IMG/VR virus record: IMGVR_UViG_3300031991_000008
Location: 1 to 64,000 of that record
DNA length: 64,000 nt
DNA from: a virus
Strand: one strand, 5' to 3'
Part shown: in pieces, positions 1-59,635 of the stretch
Layout: the number at the start of each line of letters is the position of its first letter
Position numbering within the stretch: the stretch's first letter is position 1
Position numbers and translations under genes: made by a program
Notes under the pieces: generated by a model
What the model was told of the DNA's origin: nothing
The model's database searches: none
What the model saw: only the letters and a program-made list of their open reading frames with translations

Positions 1-143
1 GCGCGTGGTTTCGCGAGCACGGACTCGACTTCCGCGCGTTTCTGCGCGATGGCATTGAAGCCGACGAGTTGGTCTCGAAGGGCGACGCGATGGCCGTGCG
101 CGTTGTGGCGTTGAAGGCGAAGCGGGAGGGCGAGAATGGGTAA
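1..143 (+). CDS. 3' end of an upstream tail gene (partial; reads ...ALKAKREGENG*)
   Basis: Open frame running into the window start. Its stop (141-143) overlaps the ATG of the next gene. It lies just before a J-like gene, so it may be a tail-tip assembly gene. Confidence 0.35.
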   Translation, partial: AWFREHGLDFRAFLRDGIEADELVSKGDAMAVRVVALKAKREGENG

Positions 144-2556
144 GCAGAAGAAGCCCAAGATTCCCGTCACCGACTACACGTTGTCGGTTCACTACGGAAT
201 CTCCCTCGGCCCCATCGACGCGCTGCTCAAGATTTGGACCGGCGAGAAGATCGCGTGGGAGGGCCGTCAGGAATCGCAGGGCGACATCCTCATCCGTCAA
301 CTCGATCTCTACGGCGGCCCGAAGAAGGAAGGCGGCGTTGAAGGCATCGCGCACTATCTGCCGGGCGGCCAATCGCAAATCATCCCCGAGAAGATCGCGG
401 CGAAGTTCGGACTCACGTCTGCCACCATGCCCGCGTTCCGTGGTACTTCGACTATCTTCTTCCACGGTGACACGTCGGAAGGCGAAGACGACTCGAACTC
501 GACGTTCGTGGACGACAACATCACGCAATGGGCTTTCGTCGGCCGCTTCCCCATCCTGCTCGGTCAGCAGGGCTCGTCGCCGAACGGCGTCAAGGGAAAG
601 CCCGGCTTCTATTGGCAGTCGCAGAACCCGAGCATCAAGACGATTTGGGTCACGGCCGAACGATGCCCGCGCTCGCTCGGCACGTTGAACTCGCGCATTC
701 TCAATCTTGAAACGGTCGAAGACGAAAGCTCGAACTCCGAACTGTCCGCGCAGTACGACGGCAACCCGGCGCACATCATCTACGACTGCCTCACCAACAC
801 CGATTTCGGTATGGGCGCATCGTCCGCGATGATCGACGAAGCCTCGTTCTTGGCCGCAGCGCAAACGCTGTTCGACGAAGACTTCGGCGTGTCGATGCTG
901 TGGACGCAGCAATCGACGGTCGAAGCGTTTGTGCAGGAAGTGCTCGATCACATTCAAGCCACGCTGTTCGTCGATCCAAAGACGGGCCTCATCAACATCA
1001 CGCTCCTTCGCGCCGACTACGTTGCGGCCGACGCTCCACTGTTCACGCCGGATAACTGCGTCGTGCAGAACTTCGCTCGCAAGGGCGAGGGCGAGATCAT
1101 CAACGAGATCGTCGTCACGTACACTAACCCGCGCAACGAGAACGAAGTCACGCTGACGGTGAAGAACCTCGCTGGCATCTCGAACGTCGGCGGCATCGTC
1201 AGCGACGGCCGCAACTACTATGGCGTGCGCAAGAGCAGCCTCGCCGCGATGCTGGCGAACCGCGACATCCGCAGCGCCGGTATCCCGCTGGCGAAGTGCG
1301 AGATGATTACGTCGCGTGACGGGTGGACGCTGACGCCGGGCCAAGTCCTGCGTCTCACGTATCCCGAGCACGGTGTCGAAGAAGTTGTGTTCCGTGTCGG
1401 CGCCGTGAACTACGGCAAGAGCCGCGATGCGAACATCCGCGTCACGCTGACCGAAGACGTGTTCGGGTACGACCCCGGCGATTACGTCATCCCGAATTAC
1501 TCGGCCTGGGTGGACACGTCGCAGCGTCCGCTTGCGCTGCCGTTCGCGCAGATCACGACGCTGCCGTACTACATGGCGAATCAGATCGACACGTTCGAGG
1601 AAGGCAACGCATTCGTCGCCGCCCTTGGTGGCACGACGCAGAGCGACGCATTCGGATTCGACTTCCTGATCGAAACCGCGATGACGGACGGGTCGATGTC
1701 CTACGAACTGTCCGGGCTCAAGTCGATCTCCGGTCGCTTCCTGCTCGACGCCGATCTGGCGCAGGATGATACGAGCTTTGTCGATCTCCCTTCGGGCACC
1801 GTGAACTCGACGATCTTCCCCGGCATGTTCTTGTTCATCGGCGACGGTGACGAGGAAGAACAAGAGATCGTTTACGTGCGTCAGGACGCGAGCAACAGCG
1901 GCGGCGTGTGGGTGCTGGACCGTGGGATGCTCGACACCGTGCCGCGCGCGTGGCCCGAGGGCACGCCGGTTTGGTGCGTCGATCCTACGACCGTGTTCTA
2001 CGACAACACCGAACTCGCGATTGGCGCGGCCGTGAATTTCAAGATGCTGACGCGCACGTCGCTCGGCCGCCTCGAAGAAGACGACGCGCCGATCATCGCG
2101 CACACGATCCATGCGCGGCCCGAACTGCCGATCCGTCCTGCGGACGTGATGGTCGCTGGCGAACCGTGGGACGACGAACTCAACCCTGCGAGCATCGTGG
2201 ATGACTCGAACTCGGCCGGTGTGTTGGTCCCTGTGACGTGGGCACGACGCAACCGCGACAGCGAGGACTCGACGCTGCTCCGTTGGACCGATGGCGATGT
2301 GACGCCACCTACGGGGGTCACGACCACCATTACGGTGCTGGCGCTCGACCGCACGACGGTTTGGTTCACGCAGGACGGCGAGACGGGCACGAGCTACGGG
2401 CTCGATGCTGCGGAATTCGAGGGAGCCGTGGGCGTCGTCCGCGTGACTTCCAAGGACGCGGATGGTAATGAGTCATTGCAAGGCCACGAAATCAGCGTGC
2501 GCGTCCGTGCAGGGGGTTATGGATTTGACTACGGGTTCAATTACGGAGGCGTGTGA
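136..2556 (+). CDS. tail tip / host-specificity protein, lambda J-like N-terminal region (806 aa)
   Basis: N-terminus ...LSVHYGISLGPIDALLKIW... resembles the lambda gpJ N-terminal ...LSVIDAISEGPIEGPV... region. It precedes the fibre genes. It carries 3 SNS motifs (DDSNS, ESSNS, DDSNS). Confidence 0.55.
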   Translation: MGKQKKPKIPVTDYTLSVHYGISLGPIDALLKIWTGEKIAWEGRQESQGDILIRQLDLYGGPKKEGGVEGIAHYLPGGQSQIIPEKIAAKFGLTSATMPAFRGTSTIFFHGDTSEGEDDSNSTFVDDNITQWAFVGRFPILLGQQGSSPNGVKGKPGFYWQSQNPSIKTIWVTAERCPRSLGTLNSRILNLETVEDESSNSELSAQYDGNPAHIIYDCLTNTDFGMGASSAMIDEASFLAAAQTLFDEDFGVSMLWTQQSTVEAFVQEVLDHIQATLFVDPKTGLINITLLRADYVAADAPLFTPDNCVVQNFARKGEGEIINEIVVTYTNPRNENEVTLTVKNLAGISNVGGIVSDGRNYYGVRKSSLAAMLANRDIRSAGIPLAKCEMITSRDGWTLTPGQVLRLTYPEHGVEEVVFRVGAVNYGKSRDANIRVTLTEDVFGYDPGDYVIPNYSAWVDTSQRPLALPFAQITTLPYYMANQIDTFEEGNAFVAALGGTTQSDAFGFDFLIETAMTDGSMSYELSGLKSISGRFLLDADLAQDDTSFVDLPSGTVNSTIFPGMFLFIGDGDEEEQEIVYVRQDASNSGGVWVLDRGMLDTVPRAWPEGTPVWCVDPTTVFYDNTELAIGAAVNFKMLTRTSLGRLEEDDAPIIAHTIHARPELPIRPADVMVAGEPWDDELNPASIVDDSNSAGVLVPVTWARRNRDSEDSTLLRWTDGDVTPPTGVTTTITVLALDRTTVWFTQDGETGTSYGLDAAEFEGAVGVVRVTSKDADGNESLQGHEISVRVRAGGYGFDYGFNYGGV

Positions 2557-3536
2557 TGGCCGGTGAACGTACCCTTCCAGGCATTAGCCTGACGGGATTT
2601 TGGAATGCAGGAGACAACACTTGGAAGGCTGGCAACGACGCCAACCTGCTCAAGCTGTCCGTGCTCGTGCAACTGCGCGTGCTTTCGCGCGTGATCTTCC
2701 CGCCAGCCGACAACTCGAACTCTCTTGGTGTCGCTAACGGCGACATCTACATCGTTCCGGTCAACGACTCGAACTCCATGCAGTCGTCGAACTCTGTTCC
2801 TCGTCACAACGACATCGCCGTCTTCGACAATGGCGCGTGGGTCTACTACACGCCACTCAACGGCTTCCGCGCTTACGTGATCGACGAGAGCGCCTACTAC
2901 AAGTTCAACGGCACGACGTGGGTCGCCGATGGCGGTAGCGCGCTCAACATCGCGTACAACAGCGGCACGAGCGGCGACTCCAACTCGACCGAGACTAATG
3001 TCGCTGACGCGCTCGATGATCTCTATGAGCGCGTGCGCAACGTCAGCGCGGGCATCATCGACGCGAGCACCGTGAACTACAACAGTGGCGACGGCGGCGA
3101 CTCGAACTCCACCGAGACGACCGTGCAAGGCGCGCTCGATGACATCTACGGCCGCGTGCGCGCTGTTGAAGGAGCAGCCGGTGGCATCACGTTCGTCGTG
3201 CTTGCGTCCGCTGCGATCACGCTGACGGCCGCTGACGACAAGAAGTTTTACATGGTCGAAGACGACTCGAACTCGGCGGGCTTCTGCACCATCGGCATCC
3301 CGGCCGACTCGCTCGAAGATTTGCCGGACGGCTTCACGGTCTCGGCCGTGCAGATCGGCGCGGGAAATCAAGTGACGTTCGCCGAGATTCAAGACTCGAA
3401 CTCGCCGGACGATCTCGTGCTGATCTATCCGGCCGACATGCAGCCGCGAACGCGCGGGCAGAACTCGGTCATTACGGCGCTCAAGACGAGCGTCGCAAAT
3501 CGTTGGTTGGTCTTCGGCGACTTGGAGCCGGTGTAA
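2556..3536 (+). CDS. DUF2793-like tail fibre / head spike protein (327 aa)
   Basis: ...LVQLRVLSRVIFPPA...GDIYIV...NGAWVYY..W matches the DUF2793 consensus (LDalvqlaVl..PP..G.rYIV..Ga.W) seen in GTA head spikes and alphaproteobacterial phage fibres. It has six DSNS-type insertions. Its start overlaps the previous stop (TGATG). Confidence 0.55.
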   Translation: MAGERTLPGISLTGFWNAGDNTWKAGNDANLLKLSVLVQLRVLSRVIFPPADNSNSLGVANGDIYIVPVNDSNSMQSSNSVPRHNDIAVFDNGAWVYYTPLNGFRAYVIDESAYYKFNGTTWVADGGSALNIAYNSGTSGDSNSTETNVADALDDLYERVRNVSAGIIDASTVNYNSGDGGDSNSTETTVQGALDDIYGRVRAVEGAAGGITFVVLASAAITLTAADDKKFYMVEDDSNSAGFCTIGIPADSLEDLPDGFTVSAVQIGAGNQVTFAEIQDSNSPDDLVLIYPADMQPRTRGQNSVITALKTSVANRWLVFGDLEPV

Positions 3537-6265
3537 TGCACACGATTCACACGTTGCCGGGTTTGATCGCCGCAGCACGCTTCATCAACAGCGCAACCGA
3601 ACTCACCATCGGTCACGAGCTTTTCGACTTCGTTGGCGAAACGTCGATCTCGCCCGTCGTGCCTGCTGGCATGAACCGCTTGCTGCTCGATCTGTGGGGC
3701 GGATCAGGCAGCGTAGGAGCCTCGGGTGGTTTCCGCGGATCAGGCGGCGGTGGCTGGACGCACTTGGTGATCGACGTTCAAGAAGGCGATGTCGTCGAAA
3801 TCTACACGGGAGAGGGCGGCGGGACTAGCGTCGCGAACGTCGAAGGCGGCGAGGGCGGTTGGCCGGACGGCGGCAACGGCAGTCGCGCCGGAAGCATCGT
3901 GGGCGGTGGCGGTGGCGGTTCCTCGCGCGTCTACGTCAACGGCACGCTCGTCGCTATCGCTGGCGGCGGTGCGGGCGAGAACGGATCGTCGGGCACGCAG
4001 GGCAGCGGTGGCTCGGGAGGCGGCTCGGCGCCGGAAATTCACAGTGGCACGGATGACTTGACCATGACGCCCGCGTCTCAAACTGCGGCGGGAACGAACA
4101 CGGTCGATGCAAACGCCAGTGGCGCGGCCTTCCAAGGCGGACACGCTCACGGATCGAGCGACCGCTTCACTGCACTCGGCGGCACTGCTGGCGGCGGGGG
4201 CGGGGGCGGCGGATTGTTCGGTGGCGCAGGTTATCACGGCCGAGGCGGGGGCGGCGGATCGGGTTGGTCTATGCCCGTTGGCGGCGACTCGAACTCGCTG
4301 CTCGACCGCGAAGTCTATGAGTCCACGACGTTGAACGGCGTCGATACGGACGGCCAAGGTCGGCAAGCTCAAGGTTGGGATCGCTGGAAGGGATCGGGCG
4401 TCGAAGAAGGAACGGCCGCTACTGGCGGTGATATTCTCAACAGTCACAACGGTCGCGTTTCTGTGTGGGGCTTTGCGCCCGGTGGTGATGCGCCGCTTGG
4501 TCGTTTGCCGATCAACGTGACGGCCGAACTGTCGCAAGCGCTGGGCTCCGCGAACCGCATGGAGTTCCGTCAATACATCTGCCCGACCGATATGGTCATC
4601 GACGAAGTTGGGTTCTTCACGACGAACACGCTCGACTCGAACAGCGCAGTCGCAAGCTCTGTTCCTGTGAGTGGCGGCCGTGTGTTTCTCTACAACGACG
4701 CGGGTCTCGCAAACTCTGCGGGCGCCTTGCTCGGTCGTTCGGCCAACATCACCACTATCAACGACGGCGAAAATTGGTTCGCTCTCAATCAAACGTACTA
4801 CGCTCGACGCGGTGAAATTCTGTGGGTCGGCTACAACTTCGGAACGGCCATCACGATCTCGCTCGACCGCATCGCTCTTGCGTCCGGTCAATCGCGGCGT
4901 GCCGCGAGTATCACCGTCGCAACGAATCCGACTCCCGAGCAATTGTGGGGCATCACCAACTCTGTTCGTACCGAGGCTTATCCCGTTGCGGCTCGCGGCT
5001 TCGTGCCCACTACTGATCCCACCGATGACGTTGTGGTTGCGGTCGTGCCTTTCACGAATCCCACGAGCGCAGGCAGCATCGACGTTACCGACGATCTGCT
5101 CGGTTCTCGCGTTCCGAAGGGTGTCGTCATCGTCGGCGGTTACGCGCCGCCCAACACTGCGAACACGGGTTCGATCAACGTCGGGACCGGCGTAGCTTCG
5201 CGTGCATCTGAAAACCAATGGTGCATGTCTGCGAACCTCACGGACAACGTGTCGCTCTCTGACGGCCGCACGGATCAACGCGCGGGTTCGATCATCTCCA
5301 GGATGACGCCCGGCACGAGCGTCGGAGGCGGCGGACAGACGATGCGGGCAACCGTGTCGGCGTGGATCGCGGGTGGTGTCACGATCAATTTCACCGTAGC
5401 CGAGGCAACGCAGCGTCAGTTCTTCGCGATCTTCTTCGCGGGCGACGATCTCGATTGCGTTGCTACGCGCAAGGAAGATTGGCCGAGCGGTGTCACTCCG
5501 CAGGATCGTTTCGGATTCCCGCCTGACTTCCTGATCTGGACCGGCGAATTCTCGAACGGCGGCAACGGTGACGGCGATCAACTGTCGTCGGGCTACGCCT
5601 TCGGCATGGGCATCGCGCAAGGATCGGAACAAGGCTGCATCTGGCAACGGCAATCCGACATTCAAAGCGCGGCGAGTAACAACCCTGCGGGCGGCGCATC
5701 GAACACTCGTGTCGAAAAGATTCAGAACATCACCGCCACCACGTTCATCGGTGATCTCACGGCGCAGGGCTACGACGCGGACGGCTTCGAGATCAATGCG
5801 TCAGCCGCGCTCTCGTCCACGGACTCGCACTACTTGGCGGTTCGCACGCGCGGCGGCATGAGCGTTGAGTTCATCGACTTCACGACGCCGACTTCGACCG
5901 GCGTGCAGAACGTCACTGGCGCGGGCTTCCAACCGAAGGCCGCGCTGTTGCTCGGCCACTCGGCCGTTGCGTGGGACACGGGTTACTACAACGACGCCGA
6001 CGCGAGCGGATTCGGCATCGCTGCTTTCGATACGAATGGCGGCGTTTGTCTGTCGTTCTACAACTCGTCTGGCCCCGACTCGAACTCTGCGCTGACGGAC
6101 TGTGCATCGAGCGCGCACGACAACGAATTCAACATCGGTCGCGGCAACAGCGCCGAGACGTTGAATGCCGAATGGGATGGATTCACGAGCGACGGCTTCG
6201 ATCTCGATTGGCAGGCCGTCCACACGTCGGCGTGCCGGGGGCTCGCTCTCGTCTTCGGTTGGTGA
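3536..6265 (+). CDS. glycine-rich tail fibre protein (about 910 aa)
   Basis: Long GGxGG/GGSGG-rich N-terminal third, as in glycine-rich-domain phage fibres. It lies in the fibre cluster. TAATG start overlap with the upstream gene. 3 DSNS motifs. Confidence 0.55.
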   Translation: MHTIHTLPGLIAAARFINSATELTIGHELFDFVGETSISPVVPAGMNRLLLDLWGGSGSVGASGGFRGSGGGGWTHLVIDVQEGDVVEIYTGEGGGTSVANVEGGEGGWPDGGNGSRAGSIVGGGGGGSSRVYVNGTLVAIAGGGAGENGSSGTQGSGGSGGGSAPEIHSGTDDLTMTPASQTAAGTNTVDANASGAAFQGGHAHGSSDRFTALGGTAGGGGGGGGLFGGAGYHGRGGGGGSGWSMPVGGDSNSLLDREVYESTTLNGVDTDGQGRQAQGWDRWKGSGVEEGTAATGGDILNSHNGRVSVWGFAPGGDAPLGRLPINVTAELSQALGSANRMEFRQYICPTDMVIDEVGFFTTNTLDSNSAVASSVPVSGGRVFLYNDAGLANSAGALLGRSANITTINDGENWFALNQTYYARRGEILWVGYNFGTAITISLDRIALASGQSRRAASITVATNPTPEQLWGITNSVRTEAYPVAARGFVPTTDPTDDVVVAVVPFTNPTSAGSIDVTDDLLGSRVPKGVVIVGGYAPPNTANTGSINVGTGVASRASENQWCMSANLTDNVSLSDGRTDQRAGSIISRMTPGTSVGGGGQTMRATVSAWIAGGVTINFTVAEATQRQFFAIFFAGDDLDCVATRKEDWPSGVTPQDRFGFPPDFLIWTGEFSNGGNGDGDQLSSGYAFGMGIAQGSEQGCIWQRQSDIQSAASNNPAGGASNTRVEKIQNITATTFIGDLTAQGYDADGFEINASAALSSTDSHYLAVRTRGGMSVEFIDFTTPTSTGVQNVTGAGFQPKAALLLGHSAVAWDTGYYNDADASGFGIAAFDTNGGVCLSFYNSSGPDSNSALTDCASSAHDNEFNIGRGNSAETLNAEWDGFTSDGFDLDWQAVHTSACRGLALVFGW

Positions 6266-6268
6266 TCC

Positions 6269-7039
6269 ATGAAGAACGGAATTCCTTGGCGCGTTCGTCG
6301 AGCGATGGAAGCGGCTAAGCGCAAGAAGCCAAAGGCCACGCCGCGCTCGACGACTCGCAAGGTGCCGGAAGATCATAACCCGCACGCACCACGCGGAATC
6401 GTTTCGTGGGTTGACGCGCCTCGCATGTTCGACGGGAAGGTCGTCGCCATCATCGGCGGCGGGCCGTCGCTTAAAGGCTATGACCTATCTTTCCTCGCCC
6501 CGTTGGTAGGTCAAAACCTAATCGGCTGCATCGCCGTAAACACGAGCTACAAGATCGCGCCGTTCGCAAACATCCTGCACTTCGCTGACTGTGAGTGGTG
6601 GCGTTGGAATGGCGAGCACGTCATGCGGACGTGGCCTACCGACAAGATCATCACCACGGCGACGAGCGATGTGACGCATGTGAACTCGCCGCGCATCAAG
6701 CGATTCTGGCGCGACCGAAACAAGTTCTCCGACGAGCGCGCGAAGCTGCACGGATGGGATAGCGGCACCCAGGCCGTCAACCTCGCCTACCACCTTGGCG
6801 CCAAGAAGATCGTTCTCTTCGGGATCGACATGCAGCCCGCGCCGGACGGCGAGACGCAATGGCATCGCGAGCACAAGCGCGTGACCTACGTCCCGAATTA
6901 CGCGACGAAGTTCGCCCCGTCCCTTGCGGAGTCCGTGCGCCAACTGGCGAAGCGGGGCGTGACCGTAGTCCGGGCGACCGAGCCCGGCATCCCCGAGGCC
7001 CGGTTGGAGGCTGTCGAACAGGCCCTAGTCCTGCCCTGA
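6269..7039 (+). CDS. GT42 sialyltransferase / Maf (DUF115, MptE-like) family putative nonulosonic-acid or sugar transferase (256 aa)
   Basis: VVAIIGGGPSLKGYDLSFLAP matches the Cst-II/Maf N-terminal motif (IIAGNGPSLKEIDYSRLP). SGTQAVNLAYHLGAKKIVLFGIDM matches Cst-II SGVYMCAVAIALGYKEIYLSGIDF. It is a paralog of 42825-43430 (shared KPAPDG block). Confidence 0.45.
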   Translation: MKNGIPWRVRRAMEAAKRKKPKATPRSTTRKVPEDHNPHAPRGIVSWVDAPRMFDGKVVAIIGGGPSLKGYDLSFLAPLVGQNLIGCIAVNTSYKIAPFANILHFADCEWWRWNGEHVMRTWPTDKIITTATSDVTHVNSPRIKRFWRDRNKFSDERAKLHGWDSGTQAVNLAYHLGAKKIVLFGIDMQPAPDGETQWHREHKRVTYVPNYATKFAPSLAESVRQLAKRGVTVVRATEPGIPEARLEAVEQALVLP

Positions 7040-7093
7040 TCTGCCCAAGAGGGGGTTGCTCAACCGGCCGGGTCGCGCGTAGTGTCGCCCTGT

Positions 7094-7114
7094 TGATGGG
7101 CGGCGCTAAAGCCG
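7094..7114 (+). terminator. GC-rich hairpin GGGCGGC-gctaaa-GCCGCCC after the fibre/transferase operon (no clear U-tract)
   Basis: 7-bp perfect stem immediately downstream of the 6269-7039 stop. It is followed by an RBS-like GAAGGAGAAG and a 36-codon ORF (7132-7242). Confidence 0.25.
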
Positions 7115-7343
7115 CCCGAAGGAGAAGACCCAATGCTCGCATCCATCCAAGCGCTCGTGACCGCGCTACAATCCATCCCCGCCGCCGTGACCGCAGCGAC
7201 CGCCGCGCTCACCACGTTTTCCGATTTTCTCGAATCGGTGTAACCGCGCGAAGAAGATTTGGGCGAGCGCTCCGCGCACGCTCGACGGAATACTCGCAGC
7301 ACTGAATCAAATCGCGGCCCTCGGCCAAACGGAGATCAAGATC

Positions 7344-7532
7344 ATGGCAACCGATACGACCCTCACTTCCCTCGGCTTCCGCACTCGCACTGCGGGTGTC
7401 GTGTCCCACCAACAAACCACGAAGTTCAACGCCGAGAAGGCGAACGAACTCATCGCCGCGTTGACGGCGCGCGTGGCCGCGCTCGAAGCGTTCCAAGCGA
7501 GCGTGACTAGCTCGAACTCGCCGGGCATCTAA
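7344..7532 (+). CDS. small protein (62 aa) ending in ...SSNSPGI
   Basis: ORF with good GC3 bias. The C-terminal SNS motif is shared with virion proteins. Confidence 0.35.
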   Translation: MATDTTLTSLGFRTRTAGVVSHQQTTKFNAEKANELIAALTARVAALEAFQASVTSSNSPGI

Positions 7533-15529: not shown

Positions 15530-15704
15530 GCTGCGTCATGCGTTGCGCGAAGTCCCAGCCCTTCTTCTGCGCGCGTTCCCAATTAGGCGGCGTGTAGAGA
15601 TCGACATCCGGGCGCGGACGGCCGCGATAGAAGTCGTTGGCGCCTCGGATGTATTCGATGAACTCGTCCACATCCGAGGGAATGTAGAAGCTCTTAGCGG
15701 TCAT
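15489..15704 (-). CDS. hypothetical protein (71 aa)
   Basis: ORF with GC3 bias in the operon context. Confidence 0.35.
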   Translation of the reverse strand: MTAKSFYIPSDVDEFIEYIRGANDFYRGRPRPDVDLYTPPNWERAQKKGWDFAQRMTQLAKNYEARHARVH

Positions 15705-50192: not shown

Positions 50193-50651
50193 ATGACCCT
50201 TCTCTCTCAAAATGCACCGGGCCTCGCTGGCGGCGACTCTGACGCCTACACGCAGGACAACACGATCCTCGCGGGCGTCGCACCGACTCGCACGTCCTAC
50301 GGCTACACCGTGGACGATCTCGTTCAATACTCGCTCGTCGGTCGCGTGACGATCACGGGCGAACTCAAGCTGTCCGCGTTCGCGGCGGCGGACGGTTCGC
50401 AGAATCCTATTGGCGTCACCACGCACGCCGTGTCGGCAGGCAACCAAGACTCCAACTCTTCGGCCGACTCGAACTCGGCGGTTGACGTTGAAGCCAATCG
50501 CGTCGGCTTCTACACGGACGGCGTGTTCAACTACGACCGTCTGGCGAAGGGCGCGGGCTGGACTCTCGATCTCCTGCGTCGCAACCTCGAACTCAATGGT
50601 CAGTCCATTGGCGTCGATGTGATCCGCACGGCGACGCCGACCGAATCGTAA
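50193..50651 (+). CDS. head decoration protein (lambda gpD-like)
   Basis: 152 aa between protease and capsid; composition and length match gpD. Contains an inserted DSNSSADSNS. Confidence 0.55.
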   Translation: MTLLSQNAPGLAGGDSDAYTQDNTILAGVAPTRTSYGYTVDDLVQYSLVGRVTITGELKLSAFAAADGSQNPIGVTTHAVSAGNQDSNSSADSNSAVDVEANRVGFYTDGVFNYDRLAKGAGWTLDLLRRNLELNGQSIGVDVIRTATPTES

Positions 50652-50681: not shown

Positions 50682-51770
50682 ATGGCTATCCAAATCCTCC
50701 CCTCCCGCACGCTGCTCGGCATCTATCGCGATGACCGCCTGGACGTGCCGCAAACCTTCTGGCGCGAACTCGGCGGCTTCACGCGCCGCACGGTCCAATC
50801 GACCCGCGAGGAAATCGCGTTCGAGAAGATCAACGCGCCGGGTCGTGAGATCGCGCCGTTCGTGCTCCCGACCAACACGGGCCGCCCGATCTACAAGCGC
50901 AAGGGCTCGACGGCCAAGACCTTCAAGCCGGGCTACATCAAGCCCCGCGATCCGGTCGTGCCGCAAGAGCAATTCTCGCGCCGCCCTGGCGATCTGTTCA
51001 CCGACGTTCCGAAGACGCCGCAGGCGAACCGCGACGCCGAGATCGTTGACATCGCGCAACGCCACCGCACGGCCATCGAGCGCCGTTGGGAATGGATGTG
51101 CGCGCAAGCGATCATCCACGGTCAAGTCGTGGTCAACTACGAAGACGGCCCGTCCGTCACCGTGGACTATGAGCGCGACTCCAACCTGACGGTCATCAAG
51201 ACGACCGATCTGTGGACGGCGAGCTACGACATCACGGGCGATCTGCAACGGTTCAAGGACCGCATGGCGAAGGCCCGCTTCGGTGCCCAAGCCGTGAACC
51301 TGATCGTCGGCGTGGAAGTCTGGCCGGTGATGCAGCAAAACGAAGCGCTGCTCAAGCGGATGGACTTGAACGTCAAGAACTCCGACGTGAACCTCAAGCG
51401 CGGCCTGATCCCGACTGTCGGCGCGCCGGAATCCCCGGCGACCTTCGTCGGCACCATCGACGGTCTGCTCAACGTGTGGGTCTACTCGGACTTCTACGAA
51501 GACGACGCGGGAAACCAAGTTGACTTCATGAATCCGCGCGACATCGTGCTCACGTCCGGCGATCCGGGCGGCGTGATGGCCTTCGGCGCCATCATGGATC
51601 ACGACGCTGATCTTCAAGCCCTCCCCGTCTTTCCGAAGATGTGGAAGAACGAAGACCCGAGCGCGATCTACATCATGCACCAATCGGCGCCGCTGCCGGT
51701 GATGCCGTTCCCGAACCGCACGTTCCACGCGCGCGTTGTGGACGAAGACTCGAACTCGGCGGGCTCGTAA
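50682..51770 (+). CDS. major capsid protein (lambda gpE family)
   Basis: 362 aa in gpE position. Ends ...VVDEDSNSAGS*. Confidence 0.7.
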   Translation: MAIQILPSRTLLGIYRDDRLDVPQTFWRELGGFTRRTVQSTREEIAFEKINAPGREIAPFVLPTNTGRPIYKRKGSTAKTFKPGYIKPRDPVVPQEQFSRRPGDLFTDVPKTPQANRDAEIVDIAQRHRTAIERRWEWMCAQAIIHGQVVVNYEDGPSVTVDYERDSNLTVIKTTDLWTASYDITGDLQRFKDRMAKARFGAQAVNLIVGVEVWPVMQQNEALLKRMDLNVKNSDVNLKRGLIPTVGAPESPATFVGTIDGLLNVWVYSDFYEDDAGNQVDFMNPRDIVLTSGDPGGVMAFGAIMDHDADLQALPVFPKMWKNEDPSAIYIMHQSAPLPVMPFPNRTFHARVVDEDSNSAGS

Positions 51771-52211: not shown

Positions 52212-52613
52212 ATGGGATGGCGGGAAACTTTGACCGAGGCGCGGGCAGTCGTCCACGACACGATGAAGGTTCCCGTCATCCTGCTCGCATCACTTGCGAG
52301 TGTGAACGACTCCAATTCAACGGACGTGGCGCAACTCTTCGCCCGCATTCACAACAGCGACAAGGCGCTCGGCGACCAAGCCGGGACTTCACTCAACAGC
52401 GCAGAGCGCTACGAGCCGATTCAACGCGCGATCTTTTGGGTTGCGGAATTGACGGCCGCAGGCGTTACGCTCGACCGCAACATGGTCATCTCTGTGTTGG
52501 CAGGCGAAGCCTACAACATCGACACCGTTCGGCCGCAGGATCGCGAGACGATCACCGTGGAGATCACGCGGCTCGACGCAGAGGACTCGGCAGGACTGCC
52601 GTTGCCTGAATAA
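52212..52613 (+). CDS. putative head-tail connector/completion protein (133 aa)
   Basis: Position equivalent to lambda FII. Contains VNDSNSTD. Confidence 0.4.
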   Translation: MGWRETLTEARAVVHDTMKVPVILLASLASVNDSNSTDVAQLFARIHNSDKALGDQAGTSLNSAERYEPIQRAIFWVAELTAAGVTLDRNMVISVLAGEAYNIDTVRPQDRETITVEITRLDAEDSAGLPLPE

Positions 52614-53198: not shown

Positions 53199-53729
53199 AT
53201 GGCAGACCCGTTTCGACTCCGCGTGATGAAGAACCTGACGACGTTGCTCGAAGGAATCACCGAGTCCTCGAACTCGCCGGACGATGGCCCGCAGCACAAT
53301 CTCTCGGGCCATGTCTTCCGTGGTCGAAACATCTTCGGTGAGACTGATCCGCTGCCGATGATCGCGATCCTCGAAACCCCTGTCGCCATCGACCAATTGC
53401 CCGCGCCAGAAGAACAGGGCGCGTCGAGCGGACTGTGGGATATTTCGATCCAAGGGTTCGTCAAGGACGACAAGGAAAACCCGACCGATCCGGCATACCG
53501 ATTGGCGGCCGATGTCATCATGGCTCTCGCTGACGAGAAGCGCCGACCTGCGCTCGAACGTCAATCCAAGGGAAAGGTGGTAACGCCGCTGCTTGGCGAA
53601 TCGGGCGTGCTCGACATCTTCATCGGGAGCCCGGTCCACCGGCCGCCCGACGACATCTCGGGCAAGGCGTACTTTTGGCTGCAAATCACGGTCAAGGTGG
53701 CCGAGAAGCATAACGCCCCATACGCCTGA
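53199..53729 (+). CDS. putative tail terminator / DUF3168-like protein (176 aa)
   Basis: Position just before the tail tube gene. N-terminus ...LTTLLEGITESSNSP.... Confidence 0.35.
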   Translation: MADPFRLRVMKNLTTLLEGITESSNSPDDGPQHNLSGHVFRGRNIFGETDPLPMIAILETPVAIDQLPAPEEQGASSGLWDISIQGFVKDDKENPTDPAYRLAADVIMALADEKRRPALERQSKGKVVTPLLGESGVLDIFIGSPVHRPPDDISGKAYFWLQITVKVAEKHNAPYA

Positions 53730-53833: not shown

Positions 53834-54658
53834 ATGGCCCAAGGCGAACCCCAAAACTATACCCTCGGTCGCGGCGAACTCTATTTCGCACGCTTCGCGA
53901 ACGAGACCACGAAGGCGCCCGCTGGCGAGCGCTACATCGGCAACACCCCCGAATTCTCGCTGACCATTTCGCAAGAAGTGCTCGATCACTTCTCGTCCGA
54001 CCGAGGCATTCGGGAAAAGGACGAGTCGATTGCGTTGCAGGTCAACCGCACCGGCACGCTGACGACCGACAACGTGAACCCGGAAAACGTCGCTCTGTTT
54101 TTCTTCGGCTCGAAGGCCGATGTCGTCGAAGCTGGCGGCGCTGTCACCGAAGAACTCGCTGCCGTGCAGCAAGAACTCTACTATCAACTCGGCGTCTCTG
54201 CGTCGCGGCCTGCGGGCGCGCGCGGCATCTCCGATCAAGACTCCTCGAACTCGGAAGGCGTGTTCCTCGTCGCCGAATCCGACTCGAACTCGCTCGGCGG
54301 CGTGGCCTTCGTTGAAGGCACCGACTACGAGATGGACTACGATCTCGGCCGCCTCTACATCAAGGCTGGCGGCGGCATCGCGAACAACACGAACCTGATC
54401 GTCTCGTATCAAGTCCGTGCCGCGACGTTCGAGCGCGTGATCTCGGGTTCGGAACCCGTCTCGGGCGTGCTGCGCTTCATCGCGCAGAACCCGACCGGCG
54501 ACGACATCGACTACTACTTCCCGTGGGTCAAGATCAGCCCGAACGGCGACTACGCGCTCAAGTCGGACGAATGGCAGACCATTCCGTTCAACATCGAAGT
54601 GCTCAAGCGCACTGATCGGGAAGCGATCTACGCTGACGGCCGCCCGACCTTCGCGTAA
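53834..54658 (+). CDS. major tail (tube) protein
   Basis: 274 aa immediately upstream of chaperones and the tape measure, followed by a strong terminator. Two SNS motifs. Confidence 0.55.
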   Translation: MAQGEPQNYTLGRGELYFARFANETTKAPAGERYIGNTPEFSLTISQEVLDHFSSDRGIREKDESIALQVNRTGTLTTDNVNPENVALFFFGSKADVVEAGGAVTEELAAVQQELYYQLGVSASRPAGARGISDQDSSNSEGVFLVAESDSNSLGGVAFVEGTDYEMDYDLGRLYIKAGGGIANNTNLIVSYQVRAATFERVISGSEPVSGVLRFIAQNPTGDDIDYYFPWVKISPNGDYALKSDEWQTIPFNIEVLKRTDREAIYADGRPTFA

Positions 54659-55503: not shown

Positions 55504-58500
55504 ATGGCTATCCGCGATGTCGAACTCATCATCAAGGCTCGGGACCAAGCGAGCCAAATCGCGAAGACCGTTGGTGATGCGTTCGACCGTCTCTCGACTG
55601 CCGAGACGAAGGTAGGTACGGCGTCGGACAAGGCGGGCGATCTCATCGCTCGTCTCGCTACCGAACTCGCGCAGCTTCAAGCCACCGCAGGCGGCCTCTC
55701 CGCGTTCTCCCGCGTGTCCGGGCAGATCGACCGCGCTGGCGCATCCGTCACGCGGCTGCAAACGAATCTCGCACGCGCTCAAGATGCGTTCGTGCAAACC
55801 TCCCTGCGTGCGTCGCAGACGGCGACGAACCTCGGCCTGATCGAAGCCGAAGCGAACAGCGCGCGTACTGCGTTGGCAGGACAAGAAGGCGTGCTCTCGA
55901 CTCTGCAAGCGGAGTTGGCGCGCACGAATGCGCAAGTCGCGCAGGCTGGCGCTCGGTATCGTCAGTTGACCGGCGAGCTTCGTCAAACGAAGGCACCGAG
56001 CGATGCGTTGAAGCAGAGCGTGCGCGATCAACGCGACGCGCTGATCTCTTTGGTGGAGCAACAGCTTCGCCAGACGAACGCGCTGGCCGCGCAGCAACAG
56101 GTTGTTCGCACGGCCGCCGCTACGCTCAACACCTTGGAGAAGGAAGCCGGACAAACTGCGACGCAGTTGCGTCGTGTGAACATCGAGTTCGAGAAGACGG
56201 CTATCGCTGCGCGAAATGAATCGCAAGCGGTCGAGATCGCAACGAACGAATATCAGCAATTGCAGGCTGCGGCGACGGCGGCCTCGGCGTCGCTCGGTGG
56301 CGTCGCGCTCAAGCAAGACGACATCACCGCTGCGGCTCGGCGTAACGCGGACGCGATCTCGCGCGTCACTCTCGCGCTCGCGCAACAGCAAGCTCGCGCC
56401 AGCCAATCGTCGGGTCAAGCAGCCGCGAGCGGCCCGGCCGCACAGGCGACGGCCGCGCTGCGCTCTCAAATTGCAGCGGTCGAACAAACTCGCGCAGCGT
56501 GGAAGGCCGCCGAGGGCGATGCTGCCCGTCTCGCTGTGTCGATCCGCAACGTCGCACAACCCACGGCCGCGATGCGCGCCGAGTTCACGCTGGCGACCAT
56601 TGCCGCGCGGACGGCTAAGGATGAGTTTCGTCAGCAAGAGGCCGCGTTGCGTGGTATGCGCGCAGGCTTGCAGTTCGTGCAGACCGCGTTTCAACCGTTC
56701 ACGGCGTCGGCGCGTGCTGCCGCATTGGCGCAAACGCAAACGTCGGCCGCGTCGCTCACGCTCATTCAACGGCTGTCGCTGCTCGCGCAACGGCTCATTG
56801 GTATCCGCGCTCCTGCGCAACAGGCGACGGCCGCGCTTAATGCCGCTACGACTGCGGCTGCGCGTGCGAACGCAGCGAATCCGAACCAGGCGTTCCTCGG
56901 CCTCACGCCGTCGCGCTTGCAAAACCTGTCGTTTCAAATCAACGACGTGATTACGCAGCTTGCGTCCGGCACGAGTGTTCAACAAACGCTCGCACAACAG
57001 GCCGCGCAGATCGGGCAGTTGTTCCCGAAGTTCAACAACCTGCTCATCTCGGGTCTGCGACTGCTTCCGGTCTTGGCGGCAATCGGTGTCGTGCTGTCTC
57101 CGATCATCGCGGCCTTCATCAACCTCGGCAACACGGCGAAGTCGATTCGTGAATTCAATACGGTGCTCGCCGCGACCGGCGACAGCGCGCGTATCTCGTC
57201 GCGTGAACTCGCGAACACCGCGCGTGCCATCGACGAGTACGGCGGTTCTCTCGAAGACGCCATTGCCATCGAGCGCGAATTCCTGACGCAAGGGATCGCC
57301 ATCGACCACATGGAAGACTTGGCGAACGCGGCGACGAATGTCGGTCGCGCGTTCGGCATCGAAGCGACGGAAGCCGCGACGAAGTTCACGCGAGCGATCA
57401 ATGGCAGTCTCGACGATGTGCTGTCGCTGGACCGTGAGATCAACTTCCTCACGGCGTCCGAACGCGAGCGCATCCGCGCACTGAATGAATCGACCGACGC
57501 TACCACGCGCGACGCTCGCGAAGCAGAGCAGCGGCAGATCGTCTACGAAGCGTTGATCCGCCAAAGCGATCAGATCGCAGCGAACTCTCGCGGCCCGTGG
57601 TCGCAAGCGTTCCGCACGTTGGGCCAAGCGTTCAACGATGTTGTGCGCGCGTTCGAGAACACGGGCATCATTCAAGCGCTCGGCCGTCAGTTCGACGAAC
57701 TCGGTCAGAAGGTCAACGGCGCCGCACAGAATTTCCGCGTCGGCTTCGCGTTCCTCACCGGCGGCCGTCAAGGTCTCGTGCGCTTGGCAGAACGGCAACA
57801 AGCTGACCGCGCTTCCGGCGATCCGCGTGATCCTGATTCCGCTGTCGCGCAACGTGCGGCCGAAGCCCGCGCCGCGCAGCAACGTGAGTTCAATCGCGAA
57901 CTTGATCGCACTCTCGAACGTCGCCAACTCGAAGTCCGGCTCTCCGGTGCGTCGCGTGAAGCTGCGGCCGGTGAGCGTGCGGTGTTCGACTTGCAGAACG
58001 ACGCCCGCCGCGCTGGTGTCACGCTCACGCAAGAGCAGATCAGCGCCACCCGTACTGCGGCCGAGGCCGAAGAACGCGCTCGTGCAGGGCGTCGCCAAGG
58101 CATCTCTGACACGAATAGCCTGATCCGCCGTCAGCGCGAATTTAATCTCGATCTCGAACGCGAGAACGCTCAACGCGCTCTGCAAATTCGGCTGCTTGGT
58201 ATGACGGCTCGGCAGGCGGCCGTTGAATCGGCTATCGAGCAAGCGCGCATCCGCGCGGCAGAACGTCGTGTCGAGATCACGGATCGTCAGATCGAACAAA
58301 TCCGAGAGAGCGCCGAAGCGCTGTTCGACGCGCAGCAGGCCGAGACGCAACGCAACGAACTGTTGCAGATGGAAATCGAACTGCGCGGCATCCTCATTCA
58401 CAACATGGAGCGAGTCTCTGTAGAGCAGCAAATCCAAGAGGAAGCGCAGCTTCGCAACATCGACTTGACCACGCAATATGGTCAAGCGTGGTCCGCCATG

Positions 58501-59401: not shown

Positions 59402-59635
59402 ATGAGCATTGATCTTTCCGCCGTCGCGGCCGAATCGAAGAAGGGTGAAGGTGGCTACGCTTTCCGAGCGGGTATCGACGCCGAGAAGACCGCGCAACTG
59501 CTTGAGCAGATGGCGGCACAGCTTCGTGCGACCAACATCATCCCCACGAAGTGCTCGGTCACGTCCGAGTTCGTCAGCGGCGATTGGGAACGCGGTCGGC
59601 TCGTGCTTGAGTTCAACGAGAAGGTGTTTCTGTAA
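59402..59635 (+). CDS. small tail protein (lambda M-like position, 77 aa)
   Basis: ORF directly after the tape measure gene. Confidence 0.35.
   Translation: MSIDLSAVAAESKKGEGGYAFRAGIDAEKTAQLLEQMAAQLRATNIIPTKCSVTSEFVSGDWERGRLVLEFNEKVFL

What the first reader, a model, noticed from the sequence alone, without database searches (positions are those of the whole stretch)
136..7532. In-frame 12-mer GACTCGAACTCG (peptide [D/E/S]-S-N-S) recurs about 16 times in the tail fibre genes
Read directly from the sequence. Near-identical 12-mers occur at 490, 727, 2203, 2712, 2766, 2784, 2976, 3099, 3264, 3393, 4286, 4634, 6076 and 7508. Variants include GACTCCAACTCG, AGCTCGAACTCC and GACTCGAACAGC.
- Every copy is in the + coding frame and encodes x-S-N-S: DDSNS, ESSNS, DNSNS, NDSNS, SSNS, GDSNST (twice), DDSNS, QDSNS, GDSNS, LDSNS, PDSNS, SSNSPGI*.
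- The copies lie in four different tail proteins: the J-like tip, the DUF2793-like fibre, the glycine-rich fibre and a 62-aa protein.
- A rough expectation for a tripeptide like SNS is about one chance occurrence over these ~2,400 residues. Codon wobble varies between copies (TCG/TCC/AGC), which points to selection on the peptide rather than a copied DNA segment.
- In the DUF2793-like protein the motifs sit where the family consensus has short loops, so they look like insertions.
I know of no such shared micro-motif in phage virion proteins. Candidate roles are a post-translational modification tag (O-glycosylation of the Ser, or Asn modification), a recognition tag for a virion assembly factor, or a protease/autoprocessing site.
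Basis: partly seen in the sequence, partly recalled or inferred. Interest (0 to 1): 0.9.

Follow-up and report, generated by a model that had tools for sequence, protein, structure and literature searches.

The report
DSNS tag on phage virion proteins
This phage has inserted a four-residue tag (Asp-Ser-Asn-Ser) about 27 times into loops and tail ends of a dozen virion proteins (capsid, tail tube, fibres), and next to them encodes an enzyme resembling flagellin glycosyltransferases, so the tags are most likely the sites where the phage coats its particle with sugar.

Summary
GACTCGAACTCG occurs 8 times exactly (0.03 expected), always on the + strand and in frame. It is the preferred-codon spelling of a peptide tag with consensus (E/D/G)-D-S-N-S.

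- **Distribution.** The tag occurs 27 times in 12 virion proteins: decoration protein, major capsid C-terminus, tail tube, distal tail proteins, J-like tip and fibres. It is absent from terminase, protease, chaperones, tape measure and 53 non-structural proteins (DSNS 18 versus 0); the portal has one off-consensus MSNS.
- **Peptide, not DNA.** In related phages the Ser codons switch between TCN and AGY.
- **Lineage-specific additions.** Tags are insertions or C-terminal extensions missing from Casjensviridae homologues.
- **Co-occurrence.** Only phages with this enzyme subtype, which has an N-terminal HNPHxPRGI extension, carry tags. Sister phages with a shorter subtype, or no enzyme, have none.

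Best explanation (about 0.55): DSNS is a portable acceptor sequon for cytoplasmic O-glycosylation of the virion surface. Nothing chemical is shown. I found no published description.

The parts
136..2556 (+). J-like tail tip protein (PF13550 Phage-tail_3), 806 aa. Tags at nt 490-501 (DDSNS), 727-738 (ESSNS), 1888-1899 (ASNS, weak) and 2203-2214 (DDSNS).
2553..3536 (+). DUF2793 fibre, 327 aa, 7 tags at nt 2712, 2766, 2784, 2976, 3099, 3264 and 3393 (12-mer starts). Tags are insertions, or DANA-to-DSNS substitutions, relative to tag-less homologues.
3536..6265 (+). Glycine-rich fibre protein (PF12810-like N-terminal region), 909 aa. Tags at nt 4286, 4634 and 6077.
6269..7039 (+). Candidate tag-modifying enzyme, 256 aa. 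It is a minimal Maf/GT42-like PF01973 domain with a GGGPSL loop, invariant D187 and H199, and a lineage-specific N-terminal extension (HNPHxPRGI, residues 36-44). Its ATG is 3 nt after the fibre stop codon. It carries no tag itself.
7344..7532 (+). 62-aa protein ending in ...TSSNSPGI (tag at nt 7509-7520). It is conserved downstream of the enzyme in relatives, always with a C-terminal DSNS.
50193..50651 (+). gpD-like head decoration protein, 152 aa. Two tags (nt 50448-50459, 50466-50477) lie in a 16-residue insertion absent from AchV4 and Ruegeria V16.
50682..51770 (+). Major capsid protein (lambda E / Chi / YSD1 type), 362 aa. The tag (nt 51747-51758) lies in a 10-residue C-terminal extension VDEDSNSAGS placed after the last beta strand. 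Model confidence is below 50 for residues 357-362.
52212..52613 (+). 133-aa head-tail connector-region protein (phrog_4858), with one tag NDSNST at nt 52308-52319. The position is conserved in relatives (about residue 32).
53199..53729 (+). Tail terminator (phrog_5078), 176 aa, with tag ESSNSP at nt 53265-53276.
53834..54658 (+). Major tail tube protein (homologue of YSD1_22 / Chi tail tube), 274 aa. Two tags (nt 54242-54253, 54281-54292) lie in two insertions within the segment I infer to be the outer domain 2.
59635..60669 (+). 344-aa post-tape-measure structural protein (phrog_687). Tags at nt 59758-59769 and at the C-terminus, 60649-60660 (…EDSNSRS).
60679..61728 (+). 349-aa structural protein (phrog_687). 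Tags at nt 60808-60819 (GDSNS) and 60910-60921 (GGSNS).
61728..63464 (+). 578-aa distal tail protein (DUF2460 / phrog_1082) ending in …DEGSNSP (tag at nt 63447-63458).
55504..59400 (+). Negative control inside the module: tape measure protein, 1,298 aa, no SNS. The S49 protease (48846-50165), terminase (44783-46888) and tail chaperones (54770-55500) also lack SNS entirely. The portal (47165-48859) has a single off-consensus MSNS at residue 543 and no DSNS.

Best explanation
The 12-mer is the nucleotide shadow of a short peptide tag. The core S-N-S is almost invariant. Asp is strongly preferred before it, and Glu/Asp/Gly before that.

This phage lineage has inserted the tag into loops, and appended it to C-termini, of about 12 virion proteins. 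It is kept out of the tape measure, of transient assembly proteins and of all non-structural proteins.

The gene that follows the fibre genes in the same late operon (6269-7039) encodes a small enzyme with the fold of Maf flagellin glycosyltransferases and GT42 sialyltransferases. I propose three steps:
1. The enzyme recognises the linear tag through its lineage-specific N-terminal extension.
2. In the host cytoplasm it transfers a sugar to a Ser hydroxyl of each tag. The sugar is most likely a host-made CMP-activated nonulosonic or ulosonic acid.
3. The finished particle therefore carries glycans at defined points on head, tail and fibres.

A portable sequon would solve the problem of glycosylating a dozen structurally unrelated proteins with one enzyme.

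**Shown:** the tag, its enrichment and exclusivity, selection at peptide level, its insertional nature, its flexible location in the capsid protein, the enzyme fold, the gene adjacency and the co-occurrence.

**Inferred:** that the enzyme acts on the tag, the donor and linkage, and the biological benefit. Possible benefits are shielding, reduced non-productive binding, or altered surface charge.
For: **1. The tag is real and restricted to late/structural proteins.**
- DSNS 18 versus 0, and SNS 28 versus 1, in structural versus non-structural proteins.
- The 1,298-aa tape measure, the protease, terminase and chaperones have no SNS; the portal has one off-consensus MSNS and no DSNS.

**2. Selection is on the peptide.** Ser codons interchange between TCN and AGY across relatives.

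**3. Tags are lineage-specific additions.**
- They are insertions or C-terminal extensions absent from Achromobacter phage AchV4 and Ruegeria phage V16. Those phages' structural modules have 1 and 0 SNS in 8-9 thousand residues.
- All 26 capsid-protein clusters at 50% identity or more end in (E/D)(E/D)DSNS (one has DSNT). None of the 57 clusters at 44% or less does.
- 20 of 107 pooled tags lie within 5 residues of a C-terminus, several as the literal last residues.
- The capsid tag is modelled as a disordered tail.

**4. Strict motif.** Pooled counts are DSNS 107 against 0.63 expected. Thr, Ala or Gly replacements stay at background level. Flanks are depleted in Lys and Arg.

**5. The enzyme.**
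- Pfam PF01973 at E = 2.5e-6 and PHROG 4603 'alpha-2,3-sialyltransferase' at 1e-28.
- A family profile matches MptE and Cst-II, including the GxGPSL loop.
- The AlphaFold model has pLDDT 94.8.

**6. Linkage.** The enzyme ATG is 3 nt after the fibre stop codon, with no terminator between them.

**7. Co-occurrence.**
- Of 80 viral loci with a J-like homologue, only the 4 whose locus encodes an enzyme homologue scoring above 320 bits have DSNS (4-18 copies).
- About 72 loci without the enzyme have essentially none (0 in all but one locus, which has 1).
- Three more lineages with the long enzyme subtype have 7-13 tags: L166, L167 and L003/L173.
- Phages L112/L179 and L168 carry a shorter enzyme subtype at the same position (38-42% identity, no HNPHxPRGI extension). 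They have no tags in head, tube or fibres.
Against: - There is no chemical evidence of any modification.
- The single-sequence Pfam score (27.8 bits) is below the gathering cut-off (34.6).
- The fold is shared with pyrophosphokinases (MptE, thiamine pyrophosphokinase), so glycosyl transfer is not the only possible chemistry.
- Known Maf enzymes are about 600 aa. From my own knowledge, they have no linear sequon and accept Thr as well as Ser. Here Thr is almost never used.
- The tag-bearing phages form essentially one clade. Enzyme-tag co-occurrence therefore rests on one or two evolutionary transitions, not many independent ones.
- The short-subtype phages show that the enzyme family can exist without the tag.
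- No sugar-nucleotide biosynthesis gene was found among the 30 non-structural and head/packaging proteins screened against Pfam, and the host is unknown. The donor is therefore a guess.
Confidence: 0.55

Rival explanations
1. The tag is the substrate of the same adjacent enzyme, but the chemistry is not glycosylation. The PF01973 fold also houses ATP-dependent pyrophosphokinases. The enzyme could therefore phosphorylate, pyrophosphorylate or nucleotidylate a Ser of the tag.
Confidence: 0.1
2. The tag works without covalent modification. It could be a short acidic, hydrophilic surface patch that tunes solubility or charge. It could bind a metal ion or a host surface component. It could be a docking site for another protein. 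Under this reading, its association with the enzyme subtype is only shared ancestry.
For: All tag-bearing phages fall in one clade, so co-occurrence could be phylogenetic. D, S and N are common metal ligands. Flanks are acidic and poor in Lys and Arg.
Against: Generic hydrophilic or charge effects would not need an almost invariant S-N-S, with no Thr, Gln or Asp replacements, across 107 sites and 55-65% diverged orthologues. Four residues at a disordered C-terminus cannot form a binding site on their own. The sister phages that lost or never had the tags differ in exactly the enzyme subtype.
Confidence: 0.2
3. The Asn of the tag, not a Ser, is modified. This could be N-glycosylation or another Asn modification, by the phage enzyme or by a host enzyme.
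For: Asn is as invariant as the two Ser. Some copies read N-S-T (for example GDSNSTE twice in the DUF2793 fibre), which is a classical N-X-S/T sequon.
Against: Only 14 of 107 tags have Thr after the second Ser, so most copies are not N-X-S/T sequons. The PglB sequon D/E-X-N-X-S/T is likewise not met. From my own knowledge, Maf and GT42 enzymes form O-linkages. Virions assemble in the cytoplasm, away from periplasmic oligosaccharyltransferases.
Confidence: 0.06
4. The tag is a processing or cross-linking site, such as a protease cleavage site, an Asn-mediated self-cleavage site or an isopeptide chainmail site.
For: The module encodes an S49 prohead protease. Chi-like capsids use chainmail stabilisation (PMC7385642). 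Asn takes part in HK97-type cross-links (my own knowledge).
Against: Seven copies in one 327-aa fibre, and two in the tail tube, would fragment those proteins. Many tags are the literal C-terminal residues, which leaves nothing to cleave. Tags occur on tail fibres far from any capsid chainmail.
Confidence: 0.04
5. The recurring 12-mer is a DNA- or RNA-level element, such as a protein-binding site, a modification target or a recombination hotspot, that happens to lie in coding sequence.
For: There are eight exact copies, all in one orientation. In this genome Asp is always GAC, and the first Ser is TCG in 14 of 18 copies. That is somewhat above background codon use.
Against: Every copy is in the same reading frame of a real gene. 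In relatives the same peptide is spelled with GAT, AAT and all six Ser codons, including AGY at both Ser positions. The near-matches on the minus strand and in non-structural genes number about what chance predicts. The exact 12-mer is simply the most frequent codon for each residue.
Confidence: 0.01

Closest known systems
Maf (motility-associated factor) flagellin nonulosonic-acid glycosyltransferases, Pfam PF01973 (MAF_flag10 / DUF115 / MptE-like), e.g. Magnetospirillum magneticum Maf, PDB 5mu5
   Different: The phage enzyme is 256 aa and lacks the N- and C-terminal flagellin-binding domains of the ~630-aa Maf. It has its own N-terminal HNPHxPRGI extension. Maf has no reported linear acceptor motif (none is mentioned in bioRxiv 10.1101/2020.06.03.131540; the rest is my own knowledge). 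Here a strict S-N-S core is implied, and the presumed substrates are a dozen unrelated virion proteins, not flagellin.
Virion glycosylation in cluster F1 mycobacteriophages (Che8; Freeman et al. 2023, as summarised in PMC11256854)
   Same: Phage-encoded transferases decorate the phage's own capsid proteins, giving a glycan coat on a non-enveloped phage particle.
   Different: The hosts differ (Actinobacteria versus a probable alphaproteobacterium). The enzymes are of different families. No short defined sequon repeated across a dozen virion proteins has been reported. Glycosylation is experimentally shown there and only inferred here.
Short bacterial protein-glycosylation sequons: Campylobacter PglB D/E-X-N-X-S/T, and the Bacteroidetes O-glycosylation motif D-(S/T)-(A/I/L/V/M/T) (own knowledge)
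   Same: The logic is the same: a 3-5 residue linear motif with an upstream acidic residue marks many unrelated proteins for one glycosylation machinery.
   Different: Those systems act in the periplasm with lipid-linked glycans and membrane oligosaccharyltransferases. The DSNS tag does not match either motif: the residue after D-S is Asn, and S/T at +2 of Asn is usually absent. The enzyme here is soluble and sialyltransferase-like.
Casjensviridae (Chi-like) siphophages: Salmonella phages Chi and YSD1, Achromobacter phage AchV4, Ruegeria phage V16
   Same: The genome architecture and virion proteins match: lambda-type A-W-B-C-D-E head genes, an Enc34-type SSB, a capsid protein matching Chi/YSD1 (E = 4.6e-45) and a tail tube matching YSD1_22 (E = 1.8e-54).
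   Different: Those phages have neither the tags (0-1 SNS per structural module) nor the enzyme (no hit). The distal tail here is GTA-like (DUF2460, BR0599, Phage-tail_3, DUF2793).
PHROG 4603 'alpha-2,3-sialyltransferase' of Caulobacter and Brevundimonas jumbo phages and other phages
   Same: It is a homologous catalytic domain (E = 1e-28; 33-37% identity to CcrColossus and its relatives) that is widespread in phages.
   Different: Those homologues lack the N-terminal extension. Their genomes show no DSNS enrichment in the 20-kb loci examined. Their function is also untested.

Membership tests
Maf / PF01973 glycosyltransferase family (enzyme at 6269-7039) | Significant match to the PF01973 profile | tested here: inconclusive
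   The window protein alone gives E = 2.5e-6 at 27.8 bits, below the curated cut-off of 34.6. Most homologues carry a precomputed PF01973 assignment. PHROG 4603 matches at 1e-28.
Maf / PF01973 glycosyltransferase family (enzyme at 6269-7039) | Modified GT-A / sialyltransferase-like fold of the Maf central domain | tested here: met
Maf / PF01973 glycosyltransferase family (enzyme at 6269-7039) | GxGPSL nucleotide-sugar loop and conserved acidic/His residues after the central strand | tested here: met
   G63-G64-G65-(P66)-S67-L68, N91, D107, D187 and H199 are invariant in 27 homologues. The loop aligns with GNGPSL of Cst-II. Equivalence of H199 to the Cst-II catalytic His is inferred, not superposed.
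Maf / PF01973 glycosyltransferase family (enzyme at 6269-7039) | Flanking N- and C-terminal domains that bind flagellin (protein of about 600 aa) | tested here: not met
   The protein is 256 aa: catalytic domain plus a 56-residue N-terminal extension.
Maf / PF01973 glycosyltransferase family (enzyme at 6269-7039) | Transfers a CMP-activated nonulosonic or ulosonic acid to Ser/Thr of a protein | not testable with these tools
   This needs enzymology or mass spectrometry.
Phage virion glycosylation systems (as in mycobacteriophage Che8) | Phage-encoded glycosyltransferase-like gene plus virion proteins carrying the acceptor sites | tested here: met
   The enzyme gene lies in the late operon. Tags are present on 12 virion proteins.
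Phage virion glycosylation systems (as in mycobacteriophage Che8) | Glycans demonstrated on virion proteins | not testable with these tools
   No isolate is available. All relatives are metagenomic.
PglB-type N-glycosylation sequon D/E-X-N-X-S/T | Ser or Thr two residues after the Asn | tested here: not met
   In D-S-N-S-x the residue at +2 of Asn is mostly A, G, P, D, L or E. Thr occurs in only 14 of 107 copies.
Bacteroidetes O-glycosylation motif D-(S/T)-(A/I/L/V/M/T) | Aliphatic residue or Thr after D-S/T | tested here: not met
   The residue after D-S is Asn in 107 of 107 DSNS sites.
Dispersed DNA repeat or DNA-binding site | Conservation at nucleotide level, independent of frame and strand | tested here: not met
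   The motif occurs only in frame and on the coding strand. Synonymous spelling varies across relatives, including TCN/AGY switches.
Casjensviridae-like siphophage (genome context) | Chi/YSD1-type capsid and tail tube proteins, lambda-type head gene order, Enc34-type SSB | tested here: met
   The closest isolates are Casjensviridae at about 40% capsid-protein identity.

The most novel reading that the evidence does not exclude
DSNS is a four-residue, portable, cytoplasmic O-glycosylation sequon read by a stand-alone 25-30 kDa Maf-like transferase. It would be the first linear acceptor motif for nonulosonic-acid-type protein glycosylation. It would also be the first case of a phage writing one sequon into every exposed virion protein to build a programmed glycan coat. 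If so, the enzyme-tag pair could be used to add sialic-acid-like sugars site-specifically to any recombinant protein.
Probability: 0.4. Interest if true: 0.9.

Novelty: new variant of a known kind. Interest (0 to 1): 0.8.

Why it matters
Protein glycosylation of phage particles has so far been shown experimentally only in a few mycobacteriophages (PMC11256854, citing Freeman et al. 2023). Maf-type glycosyltransferases are not known to use an acceptor motif.

Here the genome itself appears to display the full substrate list of one enzyme: the same strict tag, written into about 12 unrelated proteins at positions conserved across a whole phage clade. If confirmed, this would give three things:
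- A defined sequon for O-linked nonulosonic-acid glycosylation.
- A minimal enzyme for glyco-engineering in the bacterial cytoplasm.
- A readable map of which virion surfaces are exposed.

It also raises an ecological question: why does a probably flagellotropic, alphaproteobacterial phage lineage need a sugar coat? Possible reasons are mimicry of glycosylated flagellin, avoidance of non-productive adsorption, or protection from proteases and grazers.

Homologous enzymes occur in at least 376 viral contigs, so virion modification may be much more common than assumed.

Tried and rejected
**1. DNA-level repeat.** Rejected by frame, strand and codon analysis.

**2. Close cultured relatives.** Megablast of the structural module against 50,697 phage genomes gave only a 44-bp hit. 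The nearest isolates are about 40% identical in the capsid protein and lack both tag and enzyme.

**3. Generalising to other enzyme lineages.** I looked for analogous enriched tetrapeptides in loci of more distant PF01973-encoding phages (the short-subtype phages L112 and L168, CcrColossus, and low-GC marine contigs). No comparable motif was found. The ORF sets were crude, so this negative is weak.

**4. Host identification.** No homologue of the long-subtype enzyme, and no capsid protein at 50% identity or more, exists in 185,579 species-representative genomes. An NCBI record carrying a tagged capsid protein is a metagenome assembly. The best genome hits are alphaproteobacterial at 41% or less.

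**5. Sugar-nucleotide biosynthesis genes in the phage.** None was found among the 30 non-structural and head/packaging proteins screened with Pfam. Small ORFs were not screened.

**6. Literature.** Seven full-text searches found no description of the tag or of Maf-like virion glycosylation. Freeman et al. 2023 could not be opened.

**7. Independence of enzyme-tag co-occurrence.** A neighbour-joining tree of J-like proteins puts all enzyme-bearing phages together. The tag-less short-subtype group sits between two tagged groups. The tree has no bootstrap support, so at most two transitions can be claimed.

**8. Capsid C-terminus in YSD1.** The position of the capsid C-terminus on the shell is not stated in the main text of the YSD1 paper. 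Surface exposure of the capsid tag is therefore inferred from its disorder only.

Full report
**Observation**

The 12-mer GACTCGAACTCG occurs 8 times exactly in the 64-kb window, against 0.03 expected. All copies are on the + strand. With up to two mismatches there are 44 matches against 15.5 expected. Two are off by one base: 6077 and 7509.

I called genes with a codon-usage model trained on the long ORFs. The tripeptide SNS occurs 29 times in predicted proteins.
- Twelve more lie in head, neck and tail genes at 50-63.5 kb.
- One is an off-consensus MSNS in the portal. Only one (ANSNSF) lies in the 53 other genes.

The window is 64,000 bases of a 64,769-bp contig. Comparison of gene order with relatives shows that the structural module simply runs across the window ends.

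Statistics:
- Late/structural genes (8,645 aa) have DSNS 18 and SNS 28. The rest (10,489 aa) have 0 and 1.
- Fisher p is 6e-7 for DSNS and 3e-9 for SNS.
- Residue shuffles give a mean of 0.12 DSNS, with a maximum of 2.
- None of the other eleven orderings of D, S, N, S occurs more than once.

**Peptide or DNA**

In this genome the tag is spelled mostly GAC-TCG-AAC-TCG, which are the commonest codons. Across eight related contigs the spelling varies:
- Asp is GAC or GAT.
- Asn is AAC or AAT.
- Both Ser positions use TCN and AGY codons.

A TCN/AGY switch needs two base changes, so the amino acids are what is conserved. The motif is never enriched in other frames or on the other strand. The recurrent 12-mer is therefore a by-product of a peptide motif.

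**Which proteins carry it**

| Carriers | Copies |
|---|---|
| gpD-like decoration protein | 2 |
| Major capsid protein (C-terminus) | 1 |
| 133-aa connector-region protein | 1 |
| Tail terminator | 1 |
| Tail tube | 2 |
| Two post-tape-measure structural proteins | 2 each |
| DUF2460 distal tail protein (C-terminus) | 1 |
| J-like tip | 4 |
| DUF2793 fibre | 7 |
| Glycine-rich fibre | 3 |
| 62-aa protein (C-terminus) | 1 |

Proteins without any SNS are the terminase subunits, the gpW-like protein, the S49 protease, the tail chaperones, the 1,298-aa tape measure and the enzyme described below. The portal has only the off-consensus MSNS. The tagged proteins are the capsid shell, decoration, tail tube, distal tail and fibre proteins. 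The tag-free ones include the tape measure, which lies inside the tube, and proteins that are not part of the finished virion. That these are respectively exposed and hidden is my reading from general phage architecture, not a measurement.

**The tags are additions**

Comparison was with the Casjensviridae isolates Achromobacter phage AchV4 and Ruegeria phage V16. Those phages' structural modules contain 1 and 0 SNS.
- The decoration-protein tags lie in a 16-residue insertion.
- The tail-tube tags lie in two insertions.
- The capsid tag lies in a C-terminal extension.

The capsid protein aligns to the solved Chi and YSD1 capsid proteins up to their penultimate residues, then continues for ten more: VDEDSNSAGS. 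In the AlphaFold model those residues follow the last strand, and 357-362 have pLDDT below 50. That fits a flexible tail.

The tail tube is homologous to YSD1_22 (E = 1.8e-54). That protein's domain 1 forms the tube and its domains 2 and 3 lie outside it (PMC7385642). The tags fall in the segment between the two halves of domain 1. I therefore infer that they lie in the outer domain; the paper's main text does not give the domain boundaries.

In the DUF2793 fibre the tags are insertions or DANA-to-DSNS replacements relative to tag-less homologues.

**Distribution among phages**

I searched 5.8 billion proteins with the capsid protein.
- All 26 clusters at 50% identity or more end in (E/D)(E/D)DSNS, optionally plus two residues. 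One has DSNT.
- None of the 57 clusters at 44% or less has the extension.

Related contigs carry tags at the same positions in orthologous proteins. Several proteins end literally in ...EDSNS.

Pooling 157 proteins from these contigs gives 107 DSNS against 0.63 expected.
- The S-N-S core shows essentially no tolerated substitutions.
- The preceding residue is D (107 copies), then N, G, S and E.
- 20 tags lie within five residues of a C-terminus.

Flanking residues are depleted in Lys (0.21-fold) and Arg (0.40-fold).

Two wider searches show how narrow the distribution is.
- Of 80 viral loci found with the tail-tube protein, only the six closest have tags (7-13 each). The other 73 loci (967 kb) have three DSNS in total.
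- Of 80 loci found with the J-like protein, only four have tags.

**The neighbouring enzyme**

The gene at 6269-7039 starts 3 nt after the stop codon of the last fibre gene, with no terminator between them. Evidence on its identity:
- It matches Pfam PF01973 (MptE-like, formerly MAF_flag10/DUF115) at E = 2.5e-6. This is below the curated cut-off.
- It matches PHROG 4603 'alpha-2,3-sialyltransferase' at 1e-28.
- A profile of 27 homologues matches archaeal MptE and the Campylobacter GT42 sialyltransferase Cst-II. The match includes the GGGPSL/GNGPSL loop.
- The AlphaFold model is very confident, with pLDDT 94.8.

Maf enzymes O-glycosylate flagellin with nonulosonic acids. They are structurally related to Cst-II (bioRxiv 10.1101/2020.06.03.131540).

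**Link between enzyme and tag**

In the J-like search, the four tagged loci are exactly those whose locus encodes a high-scoring homologue of this enzyme (above 320 bits). About 72 loci without it have essentially no DSNS. Three further contigs with enzymes at 45-59% identity (L166, L167 and L003/L173) also carry 7-13 tags.

Two related phages, L112/L179 and L168, have a homologue in the same position after the fibres.
- Their version is only 38-42% identical.
- It lacks the first ~55 residues. In the tagged phages that region holds a conserved HNPHxPRGI segment.
- These phages have no tags in capsid, decoration, tube or fibres.

In a neighbour-joining tree of J-like proteins all enzyme-bearing phages cluster together. 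The tag-less group lies between two tagged groups. That tree has no support values.

The tag therefore tracks the enzyme subtype, but this rests on one or two evolutionary transitions.

**Interpretation**

The most economical reading is that DSNS is a linear acceptor motif for this enzyme. The phage would glycosylate its exposed virion proteins in the cytoplasm, probably with a host-supplied CMP-activated nonulosonic or ulosonic acid. A portable tag is what one enzyme would need in order to act on a dozen unrelated folds.

I put this at about 0.55. The rivals are:
- The same enzyme with kinase-like chemistry (0.10).
- A non-covalent role for the tag, with only phylogenetic linkage to the enzyme (0.20).
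- Modification of the Asn (0.06).
- A cleavage or cross-link site (0.04).
- A DNA element (0.01).

The weak points are:
- There is no chemistry.
- The fold is shared with pyrophosphokinases.
- Maf enzymes are not known to use a sequon, and they accept Thr.
- No sugar-nucleotide genes were found in the 30 proteins screened.
- The host is unknown.

**Comparison with known systems, and novelty**

- The genome is a Casjensviridae-like siphophage with a GTA-like distal tail.
- The enzyme works like Maf and shares its family and fold. It fails the architectural criterion because it has no flagellin-binding domains.
- The tag matches neither the PglB sequon nor the Bacteroidetes O-glycosylation motif.
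- Virion glycosylation by phage enzymes is known in mycobacteriophages (PMC11256854). That system uses other enzymes, and no defined multi-protein sequon has been reported.
- Seven literature searches found no description of this tag.

I classify it as a new variant of a known kind (phage virion glycosylation). The motif itself is, as far as I could find, undescribed.

Noticed in passing
window 1-143 and 63461-64000: The window is 64,000 of a 64,769-bp contig. The structural module runs off the 3' end (BR0599-like hub protein, truncated) and resumes at the 5' end. The missing ~770 bases match the gene order of relatives, so the contig looks like a complete, circularly permuted genome.
   Followed up: partly
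window 9997-10638 (-), 14156-15022 (-), 15694-16242 (-): The early region holds an MT-A70 methyltransferase, a PF18909 dATP/dGTP diphosphohydrolase-like protein and a MazG pyrophosphohydrolase. Relatives add dCMP deaminase, a dNMP kinase and ribonucleotide reductase (L166-L168). This looks like a nucleotide-pool or DNA-base-modification module. No PurZ-like gene was seen.
   Followed up: no
L112 16396-17016; L168 10001-10582; L179: Sister phages carry a shorter PF01973 enzyme (about 195-205 aa, no HNPHxPRGI extension) at the same position after the fibres. They have no DSNS tags and no other obvious recurrent tetrapeptide. What this subtype modifies is open.
   Followed up: partly
loci L006-L080; hits H32-H63: PF01973 homologues are widespread in viruses, with at least 376 confirmed viral contigs. 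They include Caulobacter and Brevundimonas jumbo phages, many low-GC (about 30%) marine contigs, Tetraselmis viridis viruses and Pseudomonas phage PAJU2. In PAJU2 the matching ORF is annotated 'structural protein'.
   Followed up: no
L002 7886-9955 (689-aa fibre protein, residues 408-444): The tag is tandemly repeated four times (FDSNSNSGG x4, then LNSNSAS) in one fibre protein of a relative. Tag number can therefore expand by local duplication.
   Followed up: no
P0099 (capsid protein homologue, 58% identity): This is the only tagged capsid protein with a variant: it ends in ...DGDSNT instead of DSNS. A hydroxyl residue is kept at the last position, which may hint at which Ser matters.
   Followed up: no
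window, flanks of all tags (8 residues each side): Lys and Arg are strongly depleted around tags (0.21- and 0.40-fold). Asp, Glu, Ser, Asn, Pro and Val are enriched.
   Followed up: partly
window 42280-42828 (+): A class I SAM-dependent methyltransferase (Methyltransf_23, E = 5e-12) sits just upstream of the terminase genes. Its substrate is unknown.
   Followed up: no
window 24524-25933 (-): A 469-aa SPFH/Band 7 domain protein lies in the early region. A Band_7 gene is also present in relative L166.
   Followed up: no
L166 16667-16963; L167 19072-19338; L168 14190-14480: Relatives encode GapR-like DNA-binding proteins (PF10073), a family typical of Alphaproteobacteria and their phages. Together with the GTA-like tail genes, this points to an alphaproteobacterial host.
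   Followed up: no
window 52188-52199: A near-tag, GACTCGAACGCG (D-S-N-A), lies in frame near the C-terminus of the 126-aa protein at 51825-52205. Orthologues have no SNS tag in that protein, so it is probably chance or a decayed tag.
   Followed up: partly
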